A stretch of 64,000 bases of DNA. Source: Pseudolabrys sp. Lineage in GTDB: Bacteria; Pseudomonadota; Alphaproteobacteria; Rhizobiales; Xanthobacteraceae. Location: assembly GCA_035626335.1 (NCBI GenBank), contig DASPNW010000023.1, positions 14,738 through 78,737 on the forward strand, read 5' to 3'. Below are positions 8,801-47,904 of this stretch, one piece after another (within the stretch, counting starts at the first letter, position 1; each line of letters opens with the position of its first letter). The notes under the pieces are model-generated. The model saw only the letters and a list, made by a program, of their open reading frames with translations, was not told the origin of the DNA and ran no database searches. The position numbers and the translations under genes are program-made.

Positions 8801-10024
8801 TCACCCAATGAGAGCCGCCAGCGCACTCGCCACATCAATCGACATGACGGCGATCTGAGCCATGACAAATGCCTGCCCCTGTGTCGTCGTCAGGCTGTCT
8901 ATTTCCTCGGTCGTGAGGCCGGCGATGGCATCCGTGCTTAGACCGGGGATGCCACTCGTACTCGACAATGCGCTGAAGTTGGTCGTCGTCATTCCGGCGA
9001 TCTGCGCACTCGTGAAGCCGCCGGCCTGGGTTGACGTGAAAGCGGCGATTTCGGTCGTCGAAAGGCTATTGACCCCGGCCGTTGTCAAGGCGCCGATGTC
9101 CGCCGCGGTCAGAGCACCAACCTGGGTCTCAGTCAGGTTAGTGATCGTGGTGGTGTTTAGCCCGACAACCTGCACCGGCAACAACAGTGCGAGCGCCAAA
9201 GCGTCAAGATTGTCTATCGACAGACCATTGAGCTGGGCCCAATAGAGGCCTTGCACCTGCGCCGCGGTCAGCGCCGCTACCTGCGCGGTGGTGAGATTGT
9301 TGAGCACCGTCATGTTCAGCGAGCCGATCTGGCCCGCGGTCAGTGCACCGGCCTGCGTGGTAGACAGGCTCTGCAGCTCGGTCGTGGTCAGCTGAGCGAT
9401 CTGGCTGGCATTTAGCGCCGCCACCTGCGTGGCCGCCAGTGCCGCCACCTGCGTGGTGGTCAGATCGCCAATCACTGTCGTGCTCAGGCCGGCGGTCTGC
9501 CCGGCGCCGAGCTTGGTGACGTCAAGCGCGCCCAGGTTGTCGATCGACAGCGCATTGAGCTGGGTCGTGGTCAGGCCCTGCACCTGCACCGTGCTCAGCG
9601 CCGCCACCTGCGTGGTGGTGAGATTGTTGAGGACTGTCGTGCTCAGCGAGCCGATCTGGGCCGCGGTCAGCGCGCTGGCCTGCGTGGTCGACAGGTTCTG
9701 CAGTTCCTCCGGCGACAATGCGCCGATCTCGCCGGCGGTAAGCGCGCTCACCTGCGTCGACGTCAGCTCGGTGATCTGGGTGGTGGTGAAAGCCTGTATC
9801 TGCGCCTCGATCAGACCGCCCATGGTCGTCGAGGAGATCGCCTGAAGCTGCGCCGTCGCCAGGTATTGCAGGGCGGTCGATGTGAGCGCATTGACCTGAT
9901 CCGCATTCAGGACCGCCAGCTGGGTCGTGGAAAAAGCCGCGATGCTGGTGGTTTTCAGCGAGCTGAAGGTTGTCGTCGAAAGACCGGCAATTTTTGCGGC
10001 GCTGATGAAGGGAATAACAGACAT
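8801..10024 (-). CDS. Thr/Ala/Leu-rich octapeptide-repeat protein
   Basis: About 45 units of L-[ST]-x-x-Q-[IVL]-x-[AG]; internal duplication at 327-nt spacing. Confidence 0.85.
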   Translation of the reverse strand: MSVIPFISAAKIAGLSTTTFSSLKTTSIAAFSTTQLAVLNADQVNALTSTALQYLATAQLQAISSTTMGGLIEAQIQAFTTTQITELTSTQVSALTAGEIGALSPEELQNLSTTQASALTAAQIGSLSTTVLNNLTTTQVAALSTVQVQGLTTTQLNALSIDNLGALDVTKLGAGQTAGLSTTVIGDLTTTQVAALAATQVAALNASQIAQLTTTELQSLSTTQAGALTAGQIGSLNMTVLNNLTTAQVAALTAAQVQGLYWAQLNGLSIDNLDALALALLLPVQVVGLNTTTITNLTETQVGALTAADIGALTTAGVNSLSTTEIAAFTSTQAGGFTSAQIAGMTTTNFSALSSTSGIPGLSTDAIAGLTTEEIDSLTTTQGQAFVMAQIAVMSIDVASALAALIG

Positions 10025-23800: not shown

Positions 23801-24883
23801 GTGCTGTCGCACAATCTTATTTCCGATCTAGAAAACGCAGTGGCTACTCGGTCAGTCGAAACCGGAACCATATTGCGTCGCGTAACTGACCTCTTCCTGG
23901 TAAATGCAGGGCACTATTCCGCTGATCAGCTCGAGCTATACGATGGCATTTTGAAAGTGCTTGTCGCTGCTGTCGAAGTCAGTGCTCGCACGGAGCTTGC
24001 CCAACGACTAGCACCGGTTGACGGCGCACCCCCGAATACAATCCGAACACTCGCGCTTGACGATGCCATTGAGGTGGCAGAGCCGGTTCTATCTCAATCC
24101 AATGCGCTGGACGACGAAACTCTCACCCATTGCATCACAATCAAGGGGCAGGAGCATCTGCTTGCCATTGCCACTCGCAACAAACTCAGCGAAACAGTCA
24201 GTGATCAGCTGGTAACGAAAGGCAACATTGAAGTCCTACGTACTCTGGCCAGCAATCCAGGCGCGGCAATCTCCGATCTGGGCTTTGGCATTCTCGTCAA
24301 AAAAAGCACCGACGATGACTGGTTATCAGAACGTGTCGCCAGGAGAATTGACATTCCTGAGCACCACCTTCGCGACCTCATTTCGAAAGCATCGGATATC
24401 GTTCGGCAAAGACTGATGACGGATATCCCGGAACTCGGCGAAACCATCAAAGACATTTTGCCCTATAGTGCACCAGCCGCCGAACGCCGGACCCCCGGAT
24501 TACCCAAGGACTACAGGACCGCGGAACTCGTTGTTAAATCACGACCGCTTACCGAAGCGGCTGTGAACGAATTTGCAAAAGCAAAAAAGCTTGAAGAAGT
24601 TATTGTCTCAGTTTCAAAGCTCTCGGGCCTTTCGGCGATCGAGATCGAACGATTGTTTATGGGTACTTGGTCGAGCCCGGTTGCCGTCATTCTCAAGGCG
24701 ATCGGTTTCCACTTGTCGACTGTGGAAGCGATTTATCGATCGCGGCTGTCGGCTGGCGAGGTAGTTCGGGACGATTTAATTCAGGCAAAAGCCGAATTTA
24801 TCGCGCTCCGTCGTCCCACCGCGGAGCGCATTATGCGTTTTTACTGTGCGAGAAAAGCAGCCAAACTCTCCGATCTCTCATAA
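23801..24883 (+). CDS. DUF2336 domain-containing protein
   Basis: LRRVTDLFL, LAQRLAP..APPNTIRTLALDDAIEVAEPVLSQS, HLLAIATR; GTG start. Confidence 0.85.
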   Translation: MLSHNLISDLENAVATRSVETGTILRRVTDLFLVNAGHYSADQLELYDGILKVLVAAVEVSARTELAQRLAPVDGAPPNTIRTLALDDAIEVAEPVLSQSNALDDETLTHCITIKGQEHLLAIATRNKLSETVSDQLVTKGNIEVLRTLASNPGAAISDLGFGILVKKSTDDDWLSERVARRIDIPEHHLRDLISKASDIVRQRLMTDIPELGETIKDILPYSAPAAERRTPGLPKDYRTAELVVKSRPLTEAAVNEFAKAKKLEEVIVSVSKLSGLSAIEIERLFMGTWSSPVAVILKAIGFHLSTVEAIYRSRLSAGEVVRDDLIQAKAEFIALRRPTAERIMRFYCARKAAKLSDLS

Positions 24884-24956
24884 GCCATGAGATGCGGGAC
24901 GTGCCTTACTAACGGTTGCCTCTCACCGTCGCGCATGCGTTTGGGCAAGACCGAGA

Positions 24957-25421
24957 TTATTTCTGCGCGTCCGAACCTACGAATTTACGTCCACTCGGAC
25001 CGGTGCCGCTGACTTGGATCACCGTGGGCTCACGAATTTCTACGTAATGAGCGATGTTTGCAGGCTCGGTATAGAAACTCCCGGCTAGCAACTCCTTGAG
25101 CCCAGAAGGCTCAGCTTTTTCGCCGTACCCGGTGTACCAGGTGCCGGAAAGGACTGTGACTTCACGTGAATCCGGGTGTGTATGTGGCGCCACCTTAAAA
25201 CCTGCAGGAAATTTAAGACGGATCGTATAAGGCCCTGGCTTGCTTGGATCGCCAATCAGGACGGTCTGCTCCAAACCGGGCAGCGCCAAACCGCCCTGCG
25301 CGCTCCATTTCATTTCCGATGGCGCAAGCGCCATCACGTCGGGTTCGGCGGAATATGCCGCCGCAGCAAAAGATAGAGAGGCCGCACAAATACTGACGGC
25401 AATAATCGCTTTAACCTGCAT
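24957..25421 (-). CDS. Exported cupin domain protein
   Basis: GDPSKPGPYTIRLKFPAGFKVAPHTHPDSREVTVLSG; HY motif. Confidence 0.85.
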   Translation of the reverse strand: MQVKAIIAVSICAASLSFAAAAYSAEPDVMALAPSEMKWSAQGGLALPGLEQTVLIGDPSKPGPYTIRLKFPAGFKVAPHTHPDSREVTVLSGTWYTGYGEKAEPSGLKELLAGSFYTEPANIAHYVEIREPTVIQVSGTGPSGRKFVGSDAQK

Positions 25422-25508
25422 GACATCCCTTTTTAACAAAATGTGGCTTTTAGAGGCGAGCAAGTATCGCATCGCTGACGTAATGAACATCCTCCATCTG
25501 TATGAATC

Positions 25509-25796
25509 TCATGGCGGACTGCTTGAGCTTTTCCAGATCCACAGCACGACGAGCACGATTAGCGATCCGATGACCGCGGCGACGATGTCGCGCAGTGAAA
25601 TAGCAATCTTGTCAAGCCCTGGAAACAGGCCGAAAACGCGGAACACAAAACCGCCGACGAGCGCGCCAGCAAGCCCAAGACCCAGATTGCGGATCATGCC
25701 GAAACCCCGGCGGTCCCAGGTGATCAGCAGCCCAGCAAGCCCGCCACCGATCAGGCCGACGACAATCCAGACGATCAGTTGGTCGACAGAAGGCAT
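25509..25796 (-). CDS. GlsB/YeaQ/YmgE family membrane protein
   Basis: WIVVGLIGGGLAG, NLGLGLAGALVGG, AAVIGSLIVL. Confidence 0.85.
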   Translation of the reverse strand: MPSVDQLIVWIVVGLIGGGLAGLLITWDRRGFGMIRNLGLGLAGALVGGFVFRVFGLFPGLDKIAISLRDIVAAVIGSLIVLVVLWIWKSSSSPP

Positions 25797-25857
25797 GACA
25801 ATCTCCCGGGGTTGTAAAAGTGTAACCGGTCACAACGAGTTGTTCGAAGGGAGAACG

Positions 25858-26217
25858 TTACGGGCACGGATGTCGGAAACCGTCATACCCGAGATAGGTT
25901 TGTGTCGTGGGATCGTAGGATCGAAAGCGCTGCATACAGTAAGCAATCGGATCGCCAGCGACCGCGGGCGCGGGCTCGTAATACCCGGCCGGACCATATC
26001 TGCGCCTTTGGCTCTCCGCGCCAATAATGGCACCGGTGGCGGCGCCGACTCCGGCGCCAATAGCCGCACCGCGACCGCCGCCTGCCACGCCACCGATAAT
26101 GGCGCCGGCGGCGCCTCCAAGTATCGCCCCGCCCAGCGGATCCTGAGCTGCCGCCTCATGAGCCGGCATGGCCGCAACCAGCGTCAATAAGGCCACCATT
26201 CCCGTTATGCGAAACAT
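25858..26217 (-). CDS. BA14K family / glycine-zipper exported protein
   Basis: GAILGGAAGAIIGG zipper; AYCMQRFRSYDP..QTYLGYDG.RHPCP; RBS AAGGAG. Confidence 0.85.
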   Translation of the reverse strand: MFRITGMVALLTLVAAMPAHEAAAQDPLGGAILGGAAGAIIGGVAGGGRGAAIGAGVGAATGAIIGAESQRRRYGPAGYYEPAPAVAGDPIAYCMQRFRSYDPTTQTYLGYDGFRHPCP

Positions 26218-26307
26218 GTACGTTCTCCTTCTGTGGTCTCTTAGAGTAGCGCGACTCAATCGCCGGCAAAACGCAGAAAATTGGACAGGCAACGTCATTA
26301 GCCCAGC

Positions 26308-26850
26308 CTATTTGGCATCCGTCCCTGCCACGGCTCCGAGCGAGCGCATAAACATCTGCATGCCGTAGTGGAAAGCTATAAAAGCTCCCAACTCCATGAT
26401 TTGAGATTCCGAATAATGCTTTTTGAGCTCGTTGTAAAAAGCTGAATCGATCTGCGTCGCATCGAGAAACATCAAGTCGGCATAACGTAGCGCCCACCTC
26501 TCGGCCTCGGTAAATGAGGCATCACTTTCATAGTCGTGACAGCCAGCATCGATGCGGGCCTCGGTGAGATCCATGTCGCGAGCTTTGCGCGAGCGCAGCG
26601 CCGCAAAATACTTGTCATTGGCGAAGCGCGCCAACAATACCCGAATGATTTCTTTCAGACGATGATCGACATTGCCTTCCGTGTGACTCATTAACAACGC
26701 GCGCATCAGTGGCTTCGCCTGCTCTGGCGCGCGTGCAACAATCCGTGGAAAAACATCGTCAGGCACGCCCAGTGCTTCACACTGTGCAATCAGCTCTACC
26801 ATTTCCGGATCGGCAATTGCGTCCCGGGGCAGCGGCGCGATGTAGCTCAT
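26308..26850 (-). CDS. AhpD/CMD-family protein lacking the CxxC motif
   Basis: HRLKEIIRVLLARFANDKYFAALRS, with DKYF at the CxxC position; ATGA overlap with the upstream gene. Confidence 0.8.
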   Translation of the reverse strand: MSYIAPLPRDAIADPEMVELIAQCEALGVPDDVFPRIVARAPEQAKPLMRALLMSHTEGNVDHRLKEIIRVLLARFANDKYFAALRSRKARDMDLTEARIDAGCHDYESDASFTEAERWALRYADLMFLDATQIDSAFYNELKKHYSESQIMELGAFIAFHYGMQMFMRSLGAVAGTDAK

Positions 26851-27470
26851 TTCGCAGCCTCTTCCGATTTCAATGACACCGGCGCCGCACCGTAAAGCTT
26901 TTCCGATTCTGCTTGCGTCAGTAGCCGACCATCAGGCGAGAAAAGCGGATAGAACTTCAGCGAGCCGAAAAATGTGTGATACCCAAGATTGAACCCGATG
27001 AAGGCGCCAAGCTCGACAATCTCGTCATCGCTGTAATATTTACGCAATTCATCAAAAAACGCGGAATCGACCTTGTCTGGGTCGGTCGCCATCAATTCGC
27101 TGTAACGCAGGGCCAATTTATCGGCTTCAGAAAACCGGGCACTCGCGGCATAGTTGTCGATGCCTTCATCCAGCATCGCCTCGGAAAGTCCCTGTCGCTT
27201 CGCCGAAGCAGACCGAACATTCCCTCAATAACTGCACGCTGCCATGCGTGATAGCTGGACGCGGATTACTTCCTTTATCGTGTGCGGAATACGGCCCTTG
27301 TTGAAGCAGGCGTCCCACGCAACAAACATCGCTTCGCAAAGGTCGATATTGTGCCCCATGATCGCATGGAAGCCCGGATCCGGCGCGCGGTGTTCAAGGC
27401 ACTTGTCGATGTATGGCCGAAGCTTCGTTTTCCGAAGCTCCTCTATGTCCAGCATCGTGATGTTTGGCAT
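26847..27470 (-). CDS. AhpD/CMD-family selenoprotein candidate, 207 aa, Sec at residue 82 (TGA 27227-27225)
   Basis: The 81-aa and 109-aa ORFs are in frame across one TGA (RMAACSY-U-GNVRS); colinear with the downstream paralog; SECIS-like hairpin follows. Confidence 0.85.
27183..27224 (-). promoter_or_regulatory. Bacterial SECIS-like element
   Basis: 11 nt after UGA: GUC-(U bulge)-GCUUC-[GGC]-GAAGC-GAC; lower stem GGAA.GUUC/GGAC.UUCC. Confidence 0.8.
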
Positions 27471-27669
27471 GGCTTGTCCTCAGGAAGACCGGAGACCCTC
27501 GAGAAATACTAGGTCACGACCCGGCAAATGAGGCAAGCGAGAATCGCGCCTCCGAGAACAAGTGGGTAACTGCAATCAAGAGTTCGTAGTAGTGATATCT
27601 GCGCGCCCGTACCAATGCAGGTCAGTCGTGCTGTCCTAAGTGCGACGCGACCTTTAGGCCGAGACAGAT

Positions 27670-27706
27670 CAAAAGCGAACATCATCGGACGCTTGCGTGT
27701 TGTCCG
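27670..27706. repeat. Degenerate repeat remnant
   Basis: CAAAAGCGAACAT followed by CGGAC-N11-GTCCG. Confidence 0.4.
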
Positions 27707-27748
27707 CCTAGACGTCACGATCACGGTTGGCGTCCTGCGGGAGAGGCC

Positions 27749-28591
27749 ATGATTACCGTTCCCGAATTGGCGGCTGAGGCATTGGGGTCTCATCTTGCCG
27801 AGCACATGGGCCGCCGGTTTGGCTCGACAAATCCGGATTTAATTGAACTCGTCCAGTCTGCCGCCAGACTCGCCATCGACTGTATTGGCAACAGTGACGC
27901 GCTCTATCACAACGTCGAGCACACGATGCTAGTAACTCTCGTTGGCTACGATATTTTGCGCGGAAAAAGGCTCTTAATTGAGACGAATGCCAGCGATTTC
28001 GCGCACCTCATCGTCGCTTGCCTGTTTCACGACATTGGTTACGTGCGCGGCATCGTTAACGGCGACGGCGATGACGGCTACGTCGTTGACGTTAAAGGCA
28101 ACAAGATCACGCTGCCGCGCGGATCGTCCGACGCCGCACTGATGCCGTTTCACGTCGATCGGTCAAAGCTGTTCGTAATGGATCGTATGGCCAAGATGAA
28201 ATTACTCGATGCGACACGCGTCGCCACTGCCATCGAGTTCACACGTTTTCCATCATCTCACGAGATTGACGATGCTGACAGCGAAGAGGGCTCGCTGGTA
28301 CGCGCCGCCAATCTTATCGGCCAACTTGGCGACCCTCATTATCTCCGCAAGGCCAATGCCCTCTATCGCGAGTTCGAAGAAGTCGGGATGAACGGACAAC
28401 TCGGCTATACCTCGCCGATTGATATTACCGATCTCTATCCGCGGTTCTATTGGGACAGTGTATCGGCGCAGATCCAGAGCGCGATCCGATATCTCAACGT
28501 CACATCAAGCGGACGGCGGTGGATTGCAAATCTTTACAGCAATGTTTTTCGCGCCGAGCGTGAGCTAAATCTGAGAGGTCCACAACGCTAA
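27749..28591 (+). CDS. HD-domain metal-dependent phosphohydrolase (Npun_R2479-like)
   Basis: YHNVEHT, LFHDIGYVRG, RAANLIGQLGDP.YLRK.NALY.EF.E. Confidence 0.8.
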   Translation: MITVPELAAEALGSHLAEHMGRRFGSTNPDLIELVQSAARLAIDCIGNSDALYHNVEHTMLVTLVGYDILRGKRLLIETNASDFAHLIVACLFHDIGYVRGIVNGDGDDGYVVDVKGNKITLPRGSSDAALMPFHVDRSKLFVMDRMAKMKLLDATRVATAIEFTRFPSSHEIDDADSEEGSLVRAANLIGQLGDPHYLRKANALYREFEEVGMNGQLGYTSPIDITDLYPRFYWDSVSAQIQSAIRYLNVTSSGRRWIANLYSNVFRAERELNLRGPQR

Positions 28592-28650
28592 GCCTGCGAT
28601 TCACTGGACCTCGACAACGTTGCGCCGGCTGATTCGGTGTGAACCCGGCA

Positions 28651-29145
28651 TCACATCGGCAAAGGCCGCAGCCTGAGCGACGACAATCCGGCCACCACGT
28701 TCAGTGCGATCGAACCCTGAAGCGAAAGTGGCTGAAGCGCGATGGTGCGGTTGGAACCGCCAAGGAGGACGTTCGCGCCAGCGCCAAGCCCAACGCCGAC
28801 ATCAGCGGAAGCGCCGACATATTCCCCGGCGAGCGCGCCAGCGGGCAGTCCGGTGGTCGGCGCGAACACGGCCCAGCCCAATACACCACCAGCGCTGATA
28901 CCGATGTTCAGACCCACAGTGTTTATGGCGCCCGCGTAGGCTTCGGTTGGCAACGCTGTGTTCGGTGTGAAGAGGCACCGCATCGACTGGTAACCGACTA
29001 TGATAAAGCCAACATTCGGGTCGACTTGGCAAGAAAGCCCACCCACCTGCGTCCACGATTGCGGGGCCTGAGCCGCGGCCGGCATTGCGAGCGTCGCAGC
29101 CAAGACGAGCGTCGCGAGCAATGTTCGAGGGTAATGCATGATCAT
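28651..29145 (-). CDS. DUF992 domain exported protein
   Basis: GGLSCQV...MRCLFTP, GALAGEYVGASA, GANVLLGGSNRTIALQPLS. Confidence 0.85.
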   Translation of the reverse strand: MIMHYPRTLLATLVLAATLAMPAAAQAPQSWTQVGGLSCQVDPNVGFIIVGYQSMRCLFTPNTALPTEAYAGAINTVGLNIGISAGGVLGWAVFAPTTGLPAGALAGEYVGASADVGVGLGAGANVLLGGSNRTIALQPLSLQGSIALNVVAGLSSLRLRPLPM

Positions 29146-46649: not shown

Positions 46650-46845
46650 CGGCCAAACCGTATATTTCGAAGCGATGAAGAAAGGTAAATCTTTGCCAAC
46701 CCAGACGCTAGGCCTGGCAACATTTTCGATGAGGACTCGTAGGATAACGTACAAGTTTTTGCCGGCGGCACCACGCATTGCCAGTGCCGCAATCGGGAGT
46801 CTATCCTAACGGCGTGGTCTTGGCGCCTGCGTGAGGTATGATTTC

Positions 46846-47904
46846 ATGTCAAGGTTCTTCGCGGCTGCTGCATTCGCATGGTTGCTAATTTCGGTTGCGT
46901 CCAATGCAGTCCTGGCGCAGCAGCCGTCGCAAGCACAGCGCGAGGCCATCCGCGAATCGTGCCGTTCCGACTTTATAAGCAATTGTTCGGGTACTGAGCC
47001 CGGCGGCAAGGATGCGCTGGAGTGTCTCATGCGCAACGACGCCAAATTGTCTGTCTCTTGCAAGGCAGCCGTGGAAGCCCTTGCACCAGCGTCGACCGCT
47101 CACGATACTCCCGCCGGCGCGGTTGCCCCGACGCCAGCTAAGCCGACGCCGCAACCTGCAGCGGCGCAATCGCAAGAAGATCAACTCAAACTCGTCCGAC
47201 AAACCTGCACACTCAATGATTTCGCCGCGCACTGCTCTTGGATTGCGCCGAGCAGTCCCGAGTTGCTGCTCTGTCTGAAGGCAAACGCAGCCGAATTATC
47301 GCCAGCCTGTCGAAGGATGATGGAAACTCTTCCCGCCGCAGAAAAACCAACTACCACCGCCGAGCCTTCACCGGAAATTTCGCGACCGGCTTCGCCGTCG
47401 ACAAAAACAGAAAGTGCACCGAAGCCGACACAAACAAGCGCACCTTCGTCGCCCGCACCAGCGCAGGCGGCGACCGGAGCAAAAAAGCCAACCGCGCGGC
47501 AACTCAGTGCCATCCGAGCTGCCTGTCGATCCGATTTTATGGCCCACTGCACGGGCGTGCAGCCCGGAGGGGCCGCAGCGTTGCAGTGTCTGCAGAAAAA
47601 TTCCACTTTGCTGTCGGCCGGATGTCATAGCGCTGTAGCGGCAATTGACCGAAGCGCTCCCACATCACCTTCTGCGGCGCCGGGCGCGACCCCAGCGGCC
47701 CCGGCGGTAGCTTCGCTTGGCCCAATCCCGCCGATGCGCCCGCGCGTGGCGCTCGCTATATTGCGAATCTGCGATGCCGATCAGCGCTCGCTTTGCCCTG
47801 GCGTTGAGCCTGGCGCCGGCCGTTTGCTTTCCTGTTTATCGGACAATGCCGCGTCTCTCTCGCCGCGCTGTTATGCGGCACTGAGCGGGGCCGTCCGCCG
47901 ATAG
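46846..47904 (+). CDS. Exported protein with four 4-Cys repeats and Pro/Ala/Thr linkers
   Basis: Four units of C..D....C....P......CL..N...LS..C. Confidence 0.85.
   Translation: MSRFFAAAAFAWLLISVASNAVLAQQPSQAQREAIRESCRSDFISNCSGTEPGGKDALECLMRNDAKLSVSCKAAVEALAPASTAHDTPAGAVAPTPAKPTPQPAAAQSQEDQLKLVRQTCTLNDFAAHCSWIAPSSPELLLCLKANAAELSPACRRMMETLPAAEKPTTTAEPSPEISRPASPSTKTESAPKPTQTSAPSSPAPAQAATGAKKPTARQLSAIRAACRSDFMAHCTGVQPGGAAALQCLQKNSTLLSAGCHSAVAAIDRSAPTSPSAAPGATPAAPAVASLGPIPPMRPRVALAILRICDADQRSLCPGVEPGAGRLLSCLSDNAASLSPRCYAALSGAVRR

What the first reader, a model, noticed from the sequence alone, without database searches (positions are those of the whole stretch)
27183..27224. SECIS-like hairpin at the expected distance after the UGA
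Seen (minus strand, numbered after UGA): G12-U13-C14 pair with G29-A30-C31, U15 is bulged, GCUUC(16-20) pairs with GAAGC(24-28), and the apical loop is GGC. A lower stem pairs GGAA.GUUC (2-10) with GGAC.UUCC (34-42). Known: the E. coli fdhF SECIS has an 11-nt UGA-to-upper-stem spacing, a bulged U and a G in the loop, all matched here. This supports recoding independently of the protein evidence.
Basis: partly seen in the sequence, partly recalled or inferred. Interest (0 to 1): 0.75.

Follow-up and report, generated by a model that had tools for sequence, protein, structure and literature searches.

The report
Selenocysteine insertion hairpin in AhpD-like gene
The hairpin after the in-frame UGA is very likely a real bacterial selenocysteine-insertion (SECIS) signal, but it sits in a type of AhpD-like redox selenoprotein known since 2005, so it is a sound annotation and not a discovery.

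Summary
Its stability alone proves nothing: z = -1.35, and 4% of all TGA triplets in the window are followed by folds at least as stable.

The comparative evidence is strong:
- All 163 related genes examined, from several bacterial phyla in soil and marine samples, keep the in-frame TGA.
- The four codons that form the apical stem and GGC loop (GCT TCG GCG AAG) are the only codons with no synonymous variation. This holds in two separate gene sets.
- The next base pair covaries (C-G, U-A, U·G, never unpaired), with at least about 7 changes on a tree.
- Two divergent TGA-bearing clades keep a hairpin at the same distance, through compensatory or loop changes.
- The neighbouring paralog without Sec shows no such constraint, and five Cys-type homologs lack the core.

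The element meets the published bacterial SECIS consensus.

The lower stem is not conserved. The "bulged U" is paired in the family consensus.

The host gene belongs to the known CxxU AhpD-like selenoprotein kind. SelB and tRNA-Sec could not be checked in this genome.

The parts
26847..27470 (-). AhpD-like/CMD-family selenoprotein gene, 207 codons, active-site motif C79-S-Y-U82. It ends at a genuine TGA stop, 26849-26847.
   Evidence: Translation. Pfam CMD scores 22.4 bits. It has 163 homologs with the same in-frame TGA. Its CxxU aligns with the CxxC of Cys homologs and of Bmp8, PDB 6OHI.
27225..27227 (-). In-frame TGA, the proposed Sec codon 82.
   Evidence: TGA is present in 81 of 81 genes in the soil set and 80 of 80 in the marine set. 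Public gene calls either split the gene here or read it as W.
27214..27224 (-). 11-nt spacer between the UGA and the base of the upper hairpin.
   Evidence: There are no indels in this stretch in any of 124 distinct homologous sequences.
27194..27213 (-). Upper hairpin GUCUGCUUCGGCGAAGCGAC, the proposed SelB-binding part of the SECIS. In the window's MFE it is 3 bp, a bulged U15 (27210), 5 bp, and a GGC loop.
   Evidence: The RNAalifold consensus hairpin covers nt 15-29.
27197..27209 (-). Core GCUUCGGCGAAGC: a 5-bp apical stem plus the GGC loop (27202-27204). Its first 12 nt (codons 88-91) are identical in 160 of 161 genes.
   Evidence: It occurs only once in the window.
27188..27191 (-). 3' strand (GGAC) of the middle stem, which pairs with GUUC at 27215-27218. 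It is partly conserved, and the pairing is largely forced by the codons.
   Evidence: the four pairs are formed in 124, 68, 101 and 113 of 124 sequences.
27183..27186 (-). 3' strand (UUCC) of the lowest stem, which pairs with GGAA at 27220-27223. It is specific to the window and its closest relatives and is not conserved.
   Evidence: paired in 65, 29, 19 and 10 of 124 sequences.
26308..26850 (-). Downstream paralog (180 aa), translationally coupled through an ATGA overlap. It lacks both redox residues (NDKYF in place of ACSYU). It served as the internal negative control.

Best explanation
The hairpin is a bacterial SECIS element inside the coding region of an AhpD-like (CMD-fold) selenoprotein gene.

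Proposed mechanism, inferred from the E. coli paradigm: when the ribosome reaches UGA-82, the lower pairings have been melted. The upper hairpin, which begins 11 nt after the UGA, remains at the mRNA entrance. Its apical stem and GG-containing loop are bound by the C-terminal domain of SelB, which delivers Sec-tRNA(Sec) to the A site. UGA is then read as selenocysteine, producing a CxxU redox centre.

Shown here: the structure, its position, strong nucleotide-level purifying selection confined to it, covariation, and its restriction to TGA-bearing genes.

Inferred, not shown: SelB binding and actual Sec insertion.
For: (1) The fold and the 11-nt spacing are as described.

(2) The TGA is conserved in frame in all 163 related genes. 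It aligns with the second Cys of CxxC in distant homologs and in Bmp8, PDB 6OHI.

(3) Codons 88-91 (GCT TCG GCG AAG) are the only single-codon columns among 112 conserved degenerate columns in the soil set, and again among 101 in the marine set. GCT is used for only 5.6% of Ala codons elsewhere in these genes. The 12-mer is identical in 160 of 161 genes.

(4) The pair nt15-nt29 reads C-G 68, U-A 37, U·G 19, with 0 unpaired among 124 distinct sequences. It changed state at least about 7 times on an NJ tree built without the hairpin-coded residues.

(5) Amino-acid changes inside the stem keep the pairing: AAG to AGG gives U·G, and CGG to UGG gives G·U.

(6) The divergent clade L082 (its protein, P0172, is 29% identical to the search query, homolog P0001) has TGA followed by CCGCCUC-GGC-GAGGCGG at the same spacing, with a U-A to C-G compensatory change. 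The clade of L167 and L168 has an 8-bp stem with loop CGUGC at the same place.

(7) Controls. In 41 loci the non-Sec paralog shows ordinary synonymous variation at the equivalent codons. Five Cys homologs lack the core. The gene's real stop TGA is followed by weak structure.

(8) The element meets the published bSECIS consensus: a 3-9 nt loop, G in the first two loop positions, 16-37 nt from UGA to the loop (here 20), and MFE at or below -7.5 kcal/mol (PMC13188914).
Against: No experiment supports it. SelA, SelB, SelD and tRNA-Sec were not found in the 64-kb window, and the rest of the genome is not available.

Stability alone is unremarkable. The paralog sites fold even more stably on average.

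The apical stem is invariant, so it carries no covariation within the main family. In the first 81 sequences alone, the covariation measures did not exceed shuffles.

One Cys homolog (L163) has a different strong hairpin at the same place.

No Rfam family matches.
Confidence: 0.88

Rival explanations
1. The hairpin is a chance fold in G+C-rich coding sequence. The UGA may still be recoded, but this structure plays no part.
For: z = -1.35. 4% of TGA sites in the window fold as well. The paralog's equivalent sites average -19.0 kcal/mol against -16.4 for the Sec sites.
Against: Chance does not explain zero synonymous change in exactly these four codons in two independent gene sets. It also does not explain the use of the rare GCT codon, the fully paired covarying position, or the retention of a hairpin in divergent clades.
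Confidence: 0.03
2. The conserved 13-mer serves a different nucleotide-level function. It could be a DNA inverted repeat bound by a regulator, or an RNA element that controls pausing, stability or coupling to the downstream paralog, without being a SelB site.
For: GCTTCGGCGAAGC is a near-perfect inverted repeat. Its invariance is stricter than E. coli SelB is reported to need for most stem positions (PMC8659212). The paralog is translationally coupled.
Against: The element is found only in TGA-bearing genes, at a fixed distance from the TGA. Variation is tolerated as G·U pairs, which pair only in the sense-strand RNA. In L167 and L168 the loop sequence changes while the hairpin and a G in the first two loop positions are kept.
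Confidence: 0.06
3. The TGA is a true stop. The locus is two small genes or a pseudogene, and the hairpin is an intercistronic structure.
For: Public gene callers split the gene at this point.
Against: Both halves form one CMD domain, aligned across the TGA to full-length CxxC proteins and to a solved structure. Frame and TGA are kept in 163 of 163 genes at 60-90% identity. There is no start codon or ribosome-binding context conserved for a second gene.
Confidence: 0.02

Closest known systems
Bacterial SECIS consensus (bSECIS model of Zhang and Gladyshev, as summarised in PMC13188914)
   Same: It is a stem-loop immediately downstream of an in-frame UGA inside the coding region. It has a 3-nt apical loop with G in its first two positions (GG), an upper stem of 5 to 8 bp, 20 nt between the UGA and the loop, and MFE below -7.5 kcal/mol.
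   Different: Nothing structural differs. The core is unusually invariant: the 12-mer is identical in 160 of 161 genes across phyla.
E. coli fdhF SECIS (PMC8659212): 17-nt upper stem-loop 11 nt after UGA, bulged U17, loop G23 and U24
   Same: The spacer is 11 nt. The upper hairpin is short (20 nt against 17). In the window's own MFE, a bulged U lies on the 5' side (position 18, counting from the U of UGA). The loop begins with GG.
   Different: The loop is GGC, not GGUC, so there is no U after the G. The stem above the bulge is 5 bp, not 4. The bulged U is not conserved: the family consensus pairs it, and 58 of 161 relatives have no bulge.
AhpD-like CxxU selenoproteins from the Sargasso Sea and GOS surveys (PMC1088965; PMC2398784, 'AhpD-like 1' COG2128 and 'AhpD-like 2' pfam02627)
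   Same: It has the CMD/AhpD fold, a CxxU motif, a predicted SECIS directly after the UGA, and wide occurrence in marine and non-marine metagenomes.
   Different: This gene comes from a soil Xanthobacteraceae-like alphaproteobacterium; its best match is a Pseudolabrys MAG at 92%. It scores below the cut-offs of the curated models TIGR01926 and NF053654. I could not confirm that it falls in the same subfamily as the published sequences.
Debrominase Bmp8 (PDB 6OHI), a thiol-dependent CMD-family enzyme
   Same: It is the best solved-structure match (E = 6e-10). Its C-M-Y-C aligns with C-S-Y-U here.
   Different: It is a Cys enzyme and only distantly related. No functional inference beyond a CxxC-type redox site is justified.

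Membership tests
Bacterial SECIS element (consensus model) | Apical loop of 3-9 nt on an upper stem of 4-16 bp | tested here: met
   The loop is GGC. The stem is 5 bp plus 3 bp in the window, and 6-9 bp in relatives.
Bacterial SECIS element (consensus model) | At least one G in the first two loop positions, usually followed by G or U | tested here: met
   GG is invariant in 161 of 161 genes. In L167 and L168 the loop is CGUGC.
Bacterial SECIS element (consensus model) | [quoted passage not shown] | tested here: met
   The distance is 20 nt, with no indels in 124 distinct sequences.
Bacterial SECIS element (consensus model) | MFE at or below -7.5 kcal/mol | tested here: met
   The 42-nt structure gives -17.9 kcal/mol. 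The 20-nt upper hairpin alone gives only -6.6.
Bacterial SECIS element (consensus model) | Follows an in-frame UGA that aligns with Cys in homologs | tested here: met
   CxxU aligns with CxxC.
Bacterial SECIS element (consensus model) | Evolutionary constraint on the RNA beyond the protein code | tested here: met
   Synonymous invariance, covariation, and controls.
Bacterial SECIS element (consensus model) | Binds SelB and directs Sec insertion | not testable with these tools
   This needs a biochemical or reporter assay.
Bacterial SECIS element (consensus model) | The genome carries selA, selB, selD and tRNA-Sec | not testable with these tools
   None were found in the 64-kb window. The rest of the genome is not available.
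E. coli fdhF-type SECIS | Upper stem-loop begins 11 nt after UGA | tested here: met
   G12 is the first paired base of the upper hairpin.
E. coli fdhF-type SECIS | Conserved bulged U on the 5' strand | tested here: inconclusive
   U15 is bulged in the window's MFE (-17.9 against -12.5 kcal/mol for the alternative register). Across the family, U13 is bulged in 76 genes, U15 in 27, and none in 58. Position 15 covaries with position 29 as a pair.
E. coli fdhF-type SECIS | Loop G followed by U (G23, U24) | tested here: not met
   The loop is GGC. The G is present, but no U follows it.
AhpD-like / CMD CxxU selenoprotein | CMD (PF02627) domain | tested here: inconclusive
   The score is 22.4 bits against a cut-off of 23. 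Many homologs carry a precomputed PF02627 hit. Solved CMD proteins match at E = 6e-10 to 1e-6.
AhpD-like / CMD CxxU selenoprotein | CxxU motif at the position of the family's CxxC | tested here: met
AhpD-like / CMD CxxU selenoprotein | Passes a curated NCBIfam model (TIGR01926 or NF053654) | tested here: not met
   The scores are 36 against 81.8, and 61.9 against 310.

The most novel reading that the evidence does not exclude
The hairpin may be more than a generic SelB landing site. Its core 12-mer is frozen in 160 of 161 genes across several phyla and in both soil and marine habitats. The peptide it encodes (SASAK) occurs only in the Sec clade. No Cys ortholog above about 40% identity turned up in the top 150 of 880 hits from a search of 1.84 billion representative proteins. 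The gene almost always travels with a redox-dead paralog. Together these would fit an obligately Sec-dependent two-gene module that spreads horizontally with its own SECIS, or a hairpin under a second constraint such as control of translation into the coupled paralog.
Probability: 0.12. Interest if true: 0.5.

Novelty: new member of a known kind. Interest (0 to 1): 0.25.

Why it matters
It fixes the annotation of this locus. One 207-residue selenoprotein (C79-x-x-U82) replaces the two fragments, or the Trp read from TGA, that public gene callers produce for its homologs.

It gives a well-controlled example of how to validate a coding-region SECIS. Single-sequence stability fails as a test. Synonymous-site invariance, covariation, and paralog and Cys controls succeed.

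It also shows that the bulged U of the E. coli model is not a general requirement in this family. It does not change what is known about selenocysteine decoding.

Tried and rejected
- Thermodynamic significance failed as evidence: z = -1.35, and the site ranks 77th of 2003 TGA sites.
- Rfam gave no SECIS hit at gathering thresholds or at E <= 10.
- Covariation in the first 81 genome-derived sequences was no better than shuffles. The signal appeared only after adding 80 more divergent marine sequences.
None above about 40% identity were found. The apparent full-length hits are TGA read as W or frameshifted calls.
- I tried to test whether the strong hairpin in Cys homolog L163 (P0159) is conserved, but that protein has almost no relatives.
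- I looked for Sec machinery in the window and found none.
- An alternative cUUCGg tetraloop fold of GCUUCGGC was considered and rejected. It has only 2-3 bp and is lost in L082, whereas the GGC-loop hairpin is kept.

Full report
**What is in the sequence.**
On the minus strand, an ATG at 27470 opens a frame that runs to a TGA at 27227-27225. The same frame then continues for another 125 codons to a stop at 26849-26847.
- a lower stem, GGAA/UUCC;
- a middle stem, GUUC/GGAC;
- an upper hairpin starting at nt 12, made of GUC, a bulged U15, GCUUC, the loop GGC, GAAGC, and GAC.

The upper 20 nt fold the same way on their own.

**Is the fold more than chance?**
By stability alone, no.
- The z-score against dinucleotide shuffles is -1.35.
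- Of 2003 TGA triplets on both strands of the window, 4% are followed by a 48-nt fold at least as stable, and 19 of these also satisfy a loose SECIS-like rule.
- The equivalent position in the non-selenoprotein paralog folds even more stably on average across 41 loci (-19.0 against -16.4 kcal/mol).

A single-sequence hairpin in this G+C-rich genome is not evidence.

**The gene.**
- Pfam CMD (carboxymuconolactone decarboxylase/AhpD fold) scores 22.4 bits, just under its cut-off of 23.
- NCBIfam gives sub-threshold hits to "YciW-related (seleno)protein" and TIGR01926.
- The best solved structure is the CMD-family debrominase Bmp8 (6OHI). Its C-M-Y-C aligns with C-S-Y-U here.
- An exhaustive HMMER search of 1.84 billion representatives, using homolog P0001 as the query, found many full-length homologs at 25-38% identity that carry CxxC at this site.
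- Every closer hit falls into one of four classes: an N-terminal fragment ending at ...CxY, a C-terminal fragment starting just after the TGA, a "full-length" call with W at the site (TGA read under another genetic code), or a frameshifted call.
- No Cys ortholog above about 40% identity was seen.

**Comparative test of the hairpin.**
I collected 80 genomic loci, from Xanthobacteraceae and other Alphaproteobacteria, Burkholderiales and other Betaproteobacteria, and MAGs labelled Nitrospirota and Acidobacteriota. I also collected 80 more divergent metagenomic loci, mostly marine. All 160, plus the window, have TGA in frame at the same codon.

In a codon alignment of the first set, 112 columns have a conserved, degenerate amino acid, with a mean codon entropy of 0.97 bit. 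Only four columns use a single codon, and they are consecutive: codons 88-91, GCT TCG GCG AAG. These are exactly the apical stem and loop. GCT makes up only 5.6% of Ala codons elsewhere in these genes.

The second set reproduces the result independently. Of 101 conserved degenerate columns (mean entropy 1.37 bit), the same four are the only ones with entropy below 0.3. The 12-mer is identical in 160 of 161 genes. The one exception, AAG to AGG, turns a U-A pair into U·G.

**Covariation.**
Within the first 81 sequences the stem is so invariant that covariation measures do not exceed shuffles. With all 124 distinct sequences:
- The pair nt15-nt29 (alignment columns 18 and 32) reads C-G 68, U-A 37, U·G 19, and is never unpaired.
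- RNAalifold predicts this 6-bp hairpin with the GGC loop as the consensus.
- The change couples a synonymous Ser codon (TCT or TCC) with the following Arg/Gln codon (CGG, CAG or CGA) without exception: 72, 53 and 31 genes, plus minor pairing-compatible forms.
- On an NJ tree built from the protein without the hairpin-coded residues, the pair changed state at least about 7 times.
- G·U pairs at three positions show that the constraint acts on the sense-strand RNA.

**Divergent clades.**
- L082 encodes P0172, which is 29% identical to P0001. It has TGA followed by CCGCCUC-GGC-GAGGCGG at the same spacing, with a U-A to C-G double change inside the otherwise invariant stem.
- L167 and L168 carry the motif CNYUGNVRAASCKQQG. 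They have an uninterrupted 8-bp stem, UGCUGCUU/AAGCAGCA, with loop CGUGC at the same place.

**Controls.**
- The gene immediately downstream (26850..26308) overlaps by ATGA. It is a paralog with N-D-K-Y-F in place of A-C-S-Y-U. In 41 loci, every conserved codon after its Phe shows ordinary synonymous variation.
- Five Cys-type homologs lack the core.
- One of them, L163, has a different strong hairpin at this position. Its protein has almost no relatives, so conservation there could not be tested.
- The gene's real stop TGA is followed by less structure than shuffles give.
- The 13-mer occurs once in the window.

The 11-nt spacer, the loop G's and the apical stem hold throughout the family. 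The lowest stem does not: it is paired in 8-52% of sequences, depending on the pair. The middle stem is partly maintained, but largely by codon constraints.

The bulged U is the window's best fold: -17.9 kcal/mol against -12.5 for the alternative register. The 31 genes with the TCT/CGA codon combination, the alphaproteobacterial group that includes the window, all use the rare CGA codon that makes this register possible. Across the family, however, the MFE bulges U13 in 76 genes, U15 in 27, and nothing in 58. Position 15 behaves as a paired base.

**Comparison with known systems.**
A 2026 review gives the bacterial SECIS consensus as a 3-9 nt loop on a 4-16 bp stem, G in the first two loop positions (mostly G followed by G or U), 16-37 nt from the UGA to the loop, and MFE at or below -7.5 kcal/mol (PMC13188914). 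All four criteria are met here.

The E. coli fdhF element is described as a 17-nt upper stem-loop 11 nt after the UGA, with a bulged U17 and loop G23/U24 as SelB contacts (PMC8659212). The spacing and the loop G match. The U after the G does not, and the bulge is not conserved.

AhpD-like CxxU selenoproteins with predicted SECIS elements were reported from the Sargasso Sea in 2005 (PMC1088965). They were among the most abundant selenoprotein families in the GOS data (PMC2398784). This finding is therefore a new member of a known kind.

**Limits.**
No tRNA-Sec, selA, selB or selD lies in the window, and the rest of the genome could not be searched. No Rfam model matches. SelB binding and Sec insertion are inferred, not shown.

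Noticed in passing
window 26308-26850 (-): This paralog of the selenoprotein gene lacks both redox residues (NDKYF in place of ACSYU). Its ATG overlaps the selenoprotein's stop (ATGA). The pair is conserved in at least 41 loci. In two loci the pair forms a single 422-433 codon frame, and L082 is a two-domain fusion. Several public gene calls (P0007, P0010) run from just after the TGA into the paralog.
   Followed up: partly
homologs in public databases (P0001-P0120): This family is systematically mis-called. Genes are split at the TGA into 'hypothetical' or 'CMD family' fragments, the TGA is translated as W, or a frameshifted product is reported (for example ...LLRECPVCFGEATG... in P0009, P0011 and P0124).
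   Followed up: partly
L163:741-788: A Cys-type homolog (P0159, motif CGYCGQLRS) has a strong hairpin, CGCCGU-GCC-ACGGCG, at the position equivalent to the SECIS (-23.3 kcal/mol). It could be a fossil SECIS or chance. The protein has almost no relatives, so this could not be tested.
   Followed up: partly
L168:478-804: In one divergent Sec-clade locus, a thioredoxin gene sits immediately upstream and overlaps the selenoprotein's start by 4 nt. This hints at a thiol-redox partnership. The ORF upstream in the window (27509-27805, minus strand) has no Pfam hit.
   Followed up: no
window 26847-26849 (-): The same gene uses TGA twice: as Sec at codon 82 and as its real stop at codon 208. The second TGA is followed by less structure than shuffled sequence gives (z = +1.57).
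   Followed up: yes
window 23801-29145: The neighbours are typical of Hyphomicrobiales: DUF2336, a ChrR-like cupin, a BA14K/glycine-zipper protein and DUF992. Four ABC_sub_bind solute-binding genes and a TctC receptor lie elsewhere in the window. The best match for the selenoprotein is a Pseudolabrys MAG (92% amino-acid identity).
   Followed up: partly
window 8801-10024 (-) and 46831-47904 (+): Two repeat proteins were seen during the Pfam sweep. One has five ALTTAQ repeats. The other hits the Cys-rich FGFR repeat family. Neither relates to the finding.
   Followed up: no
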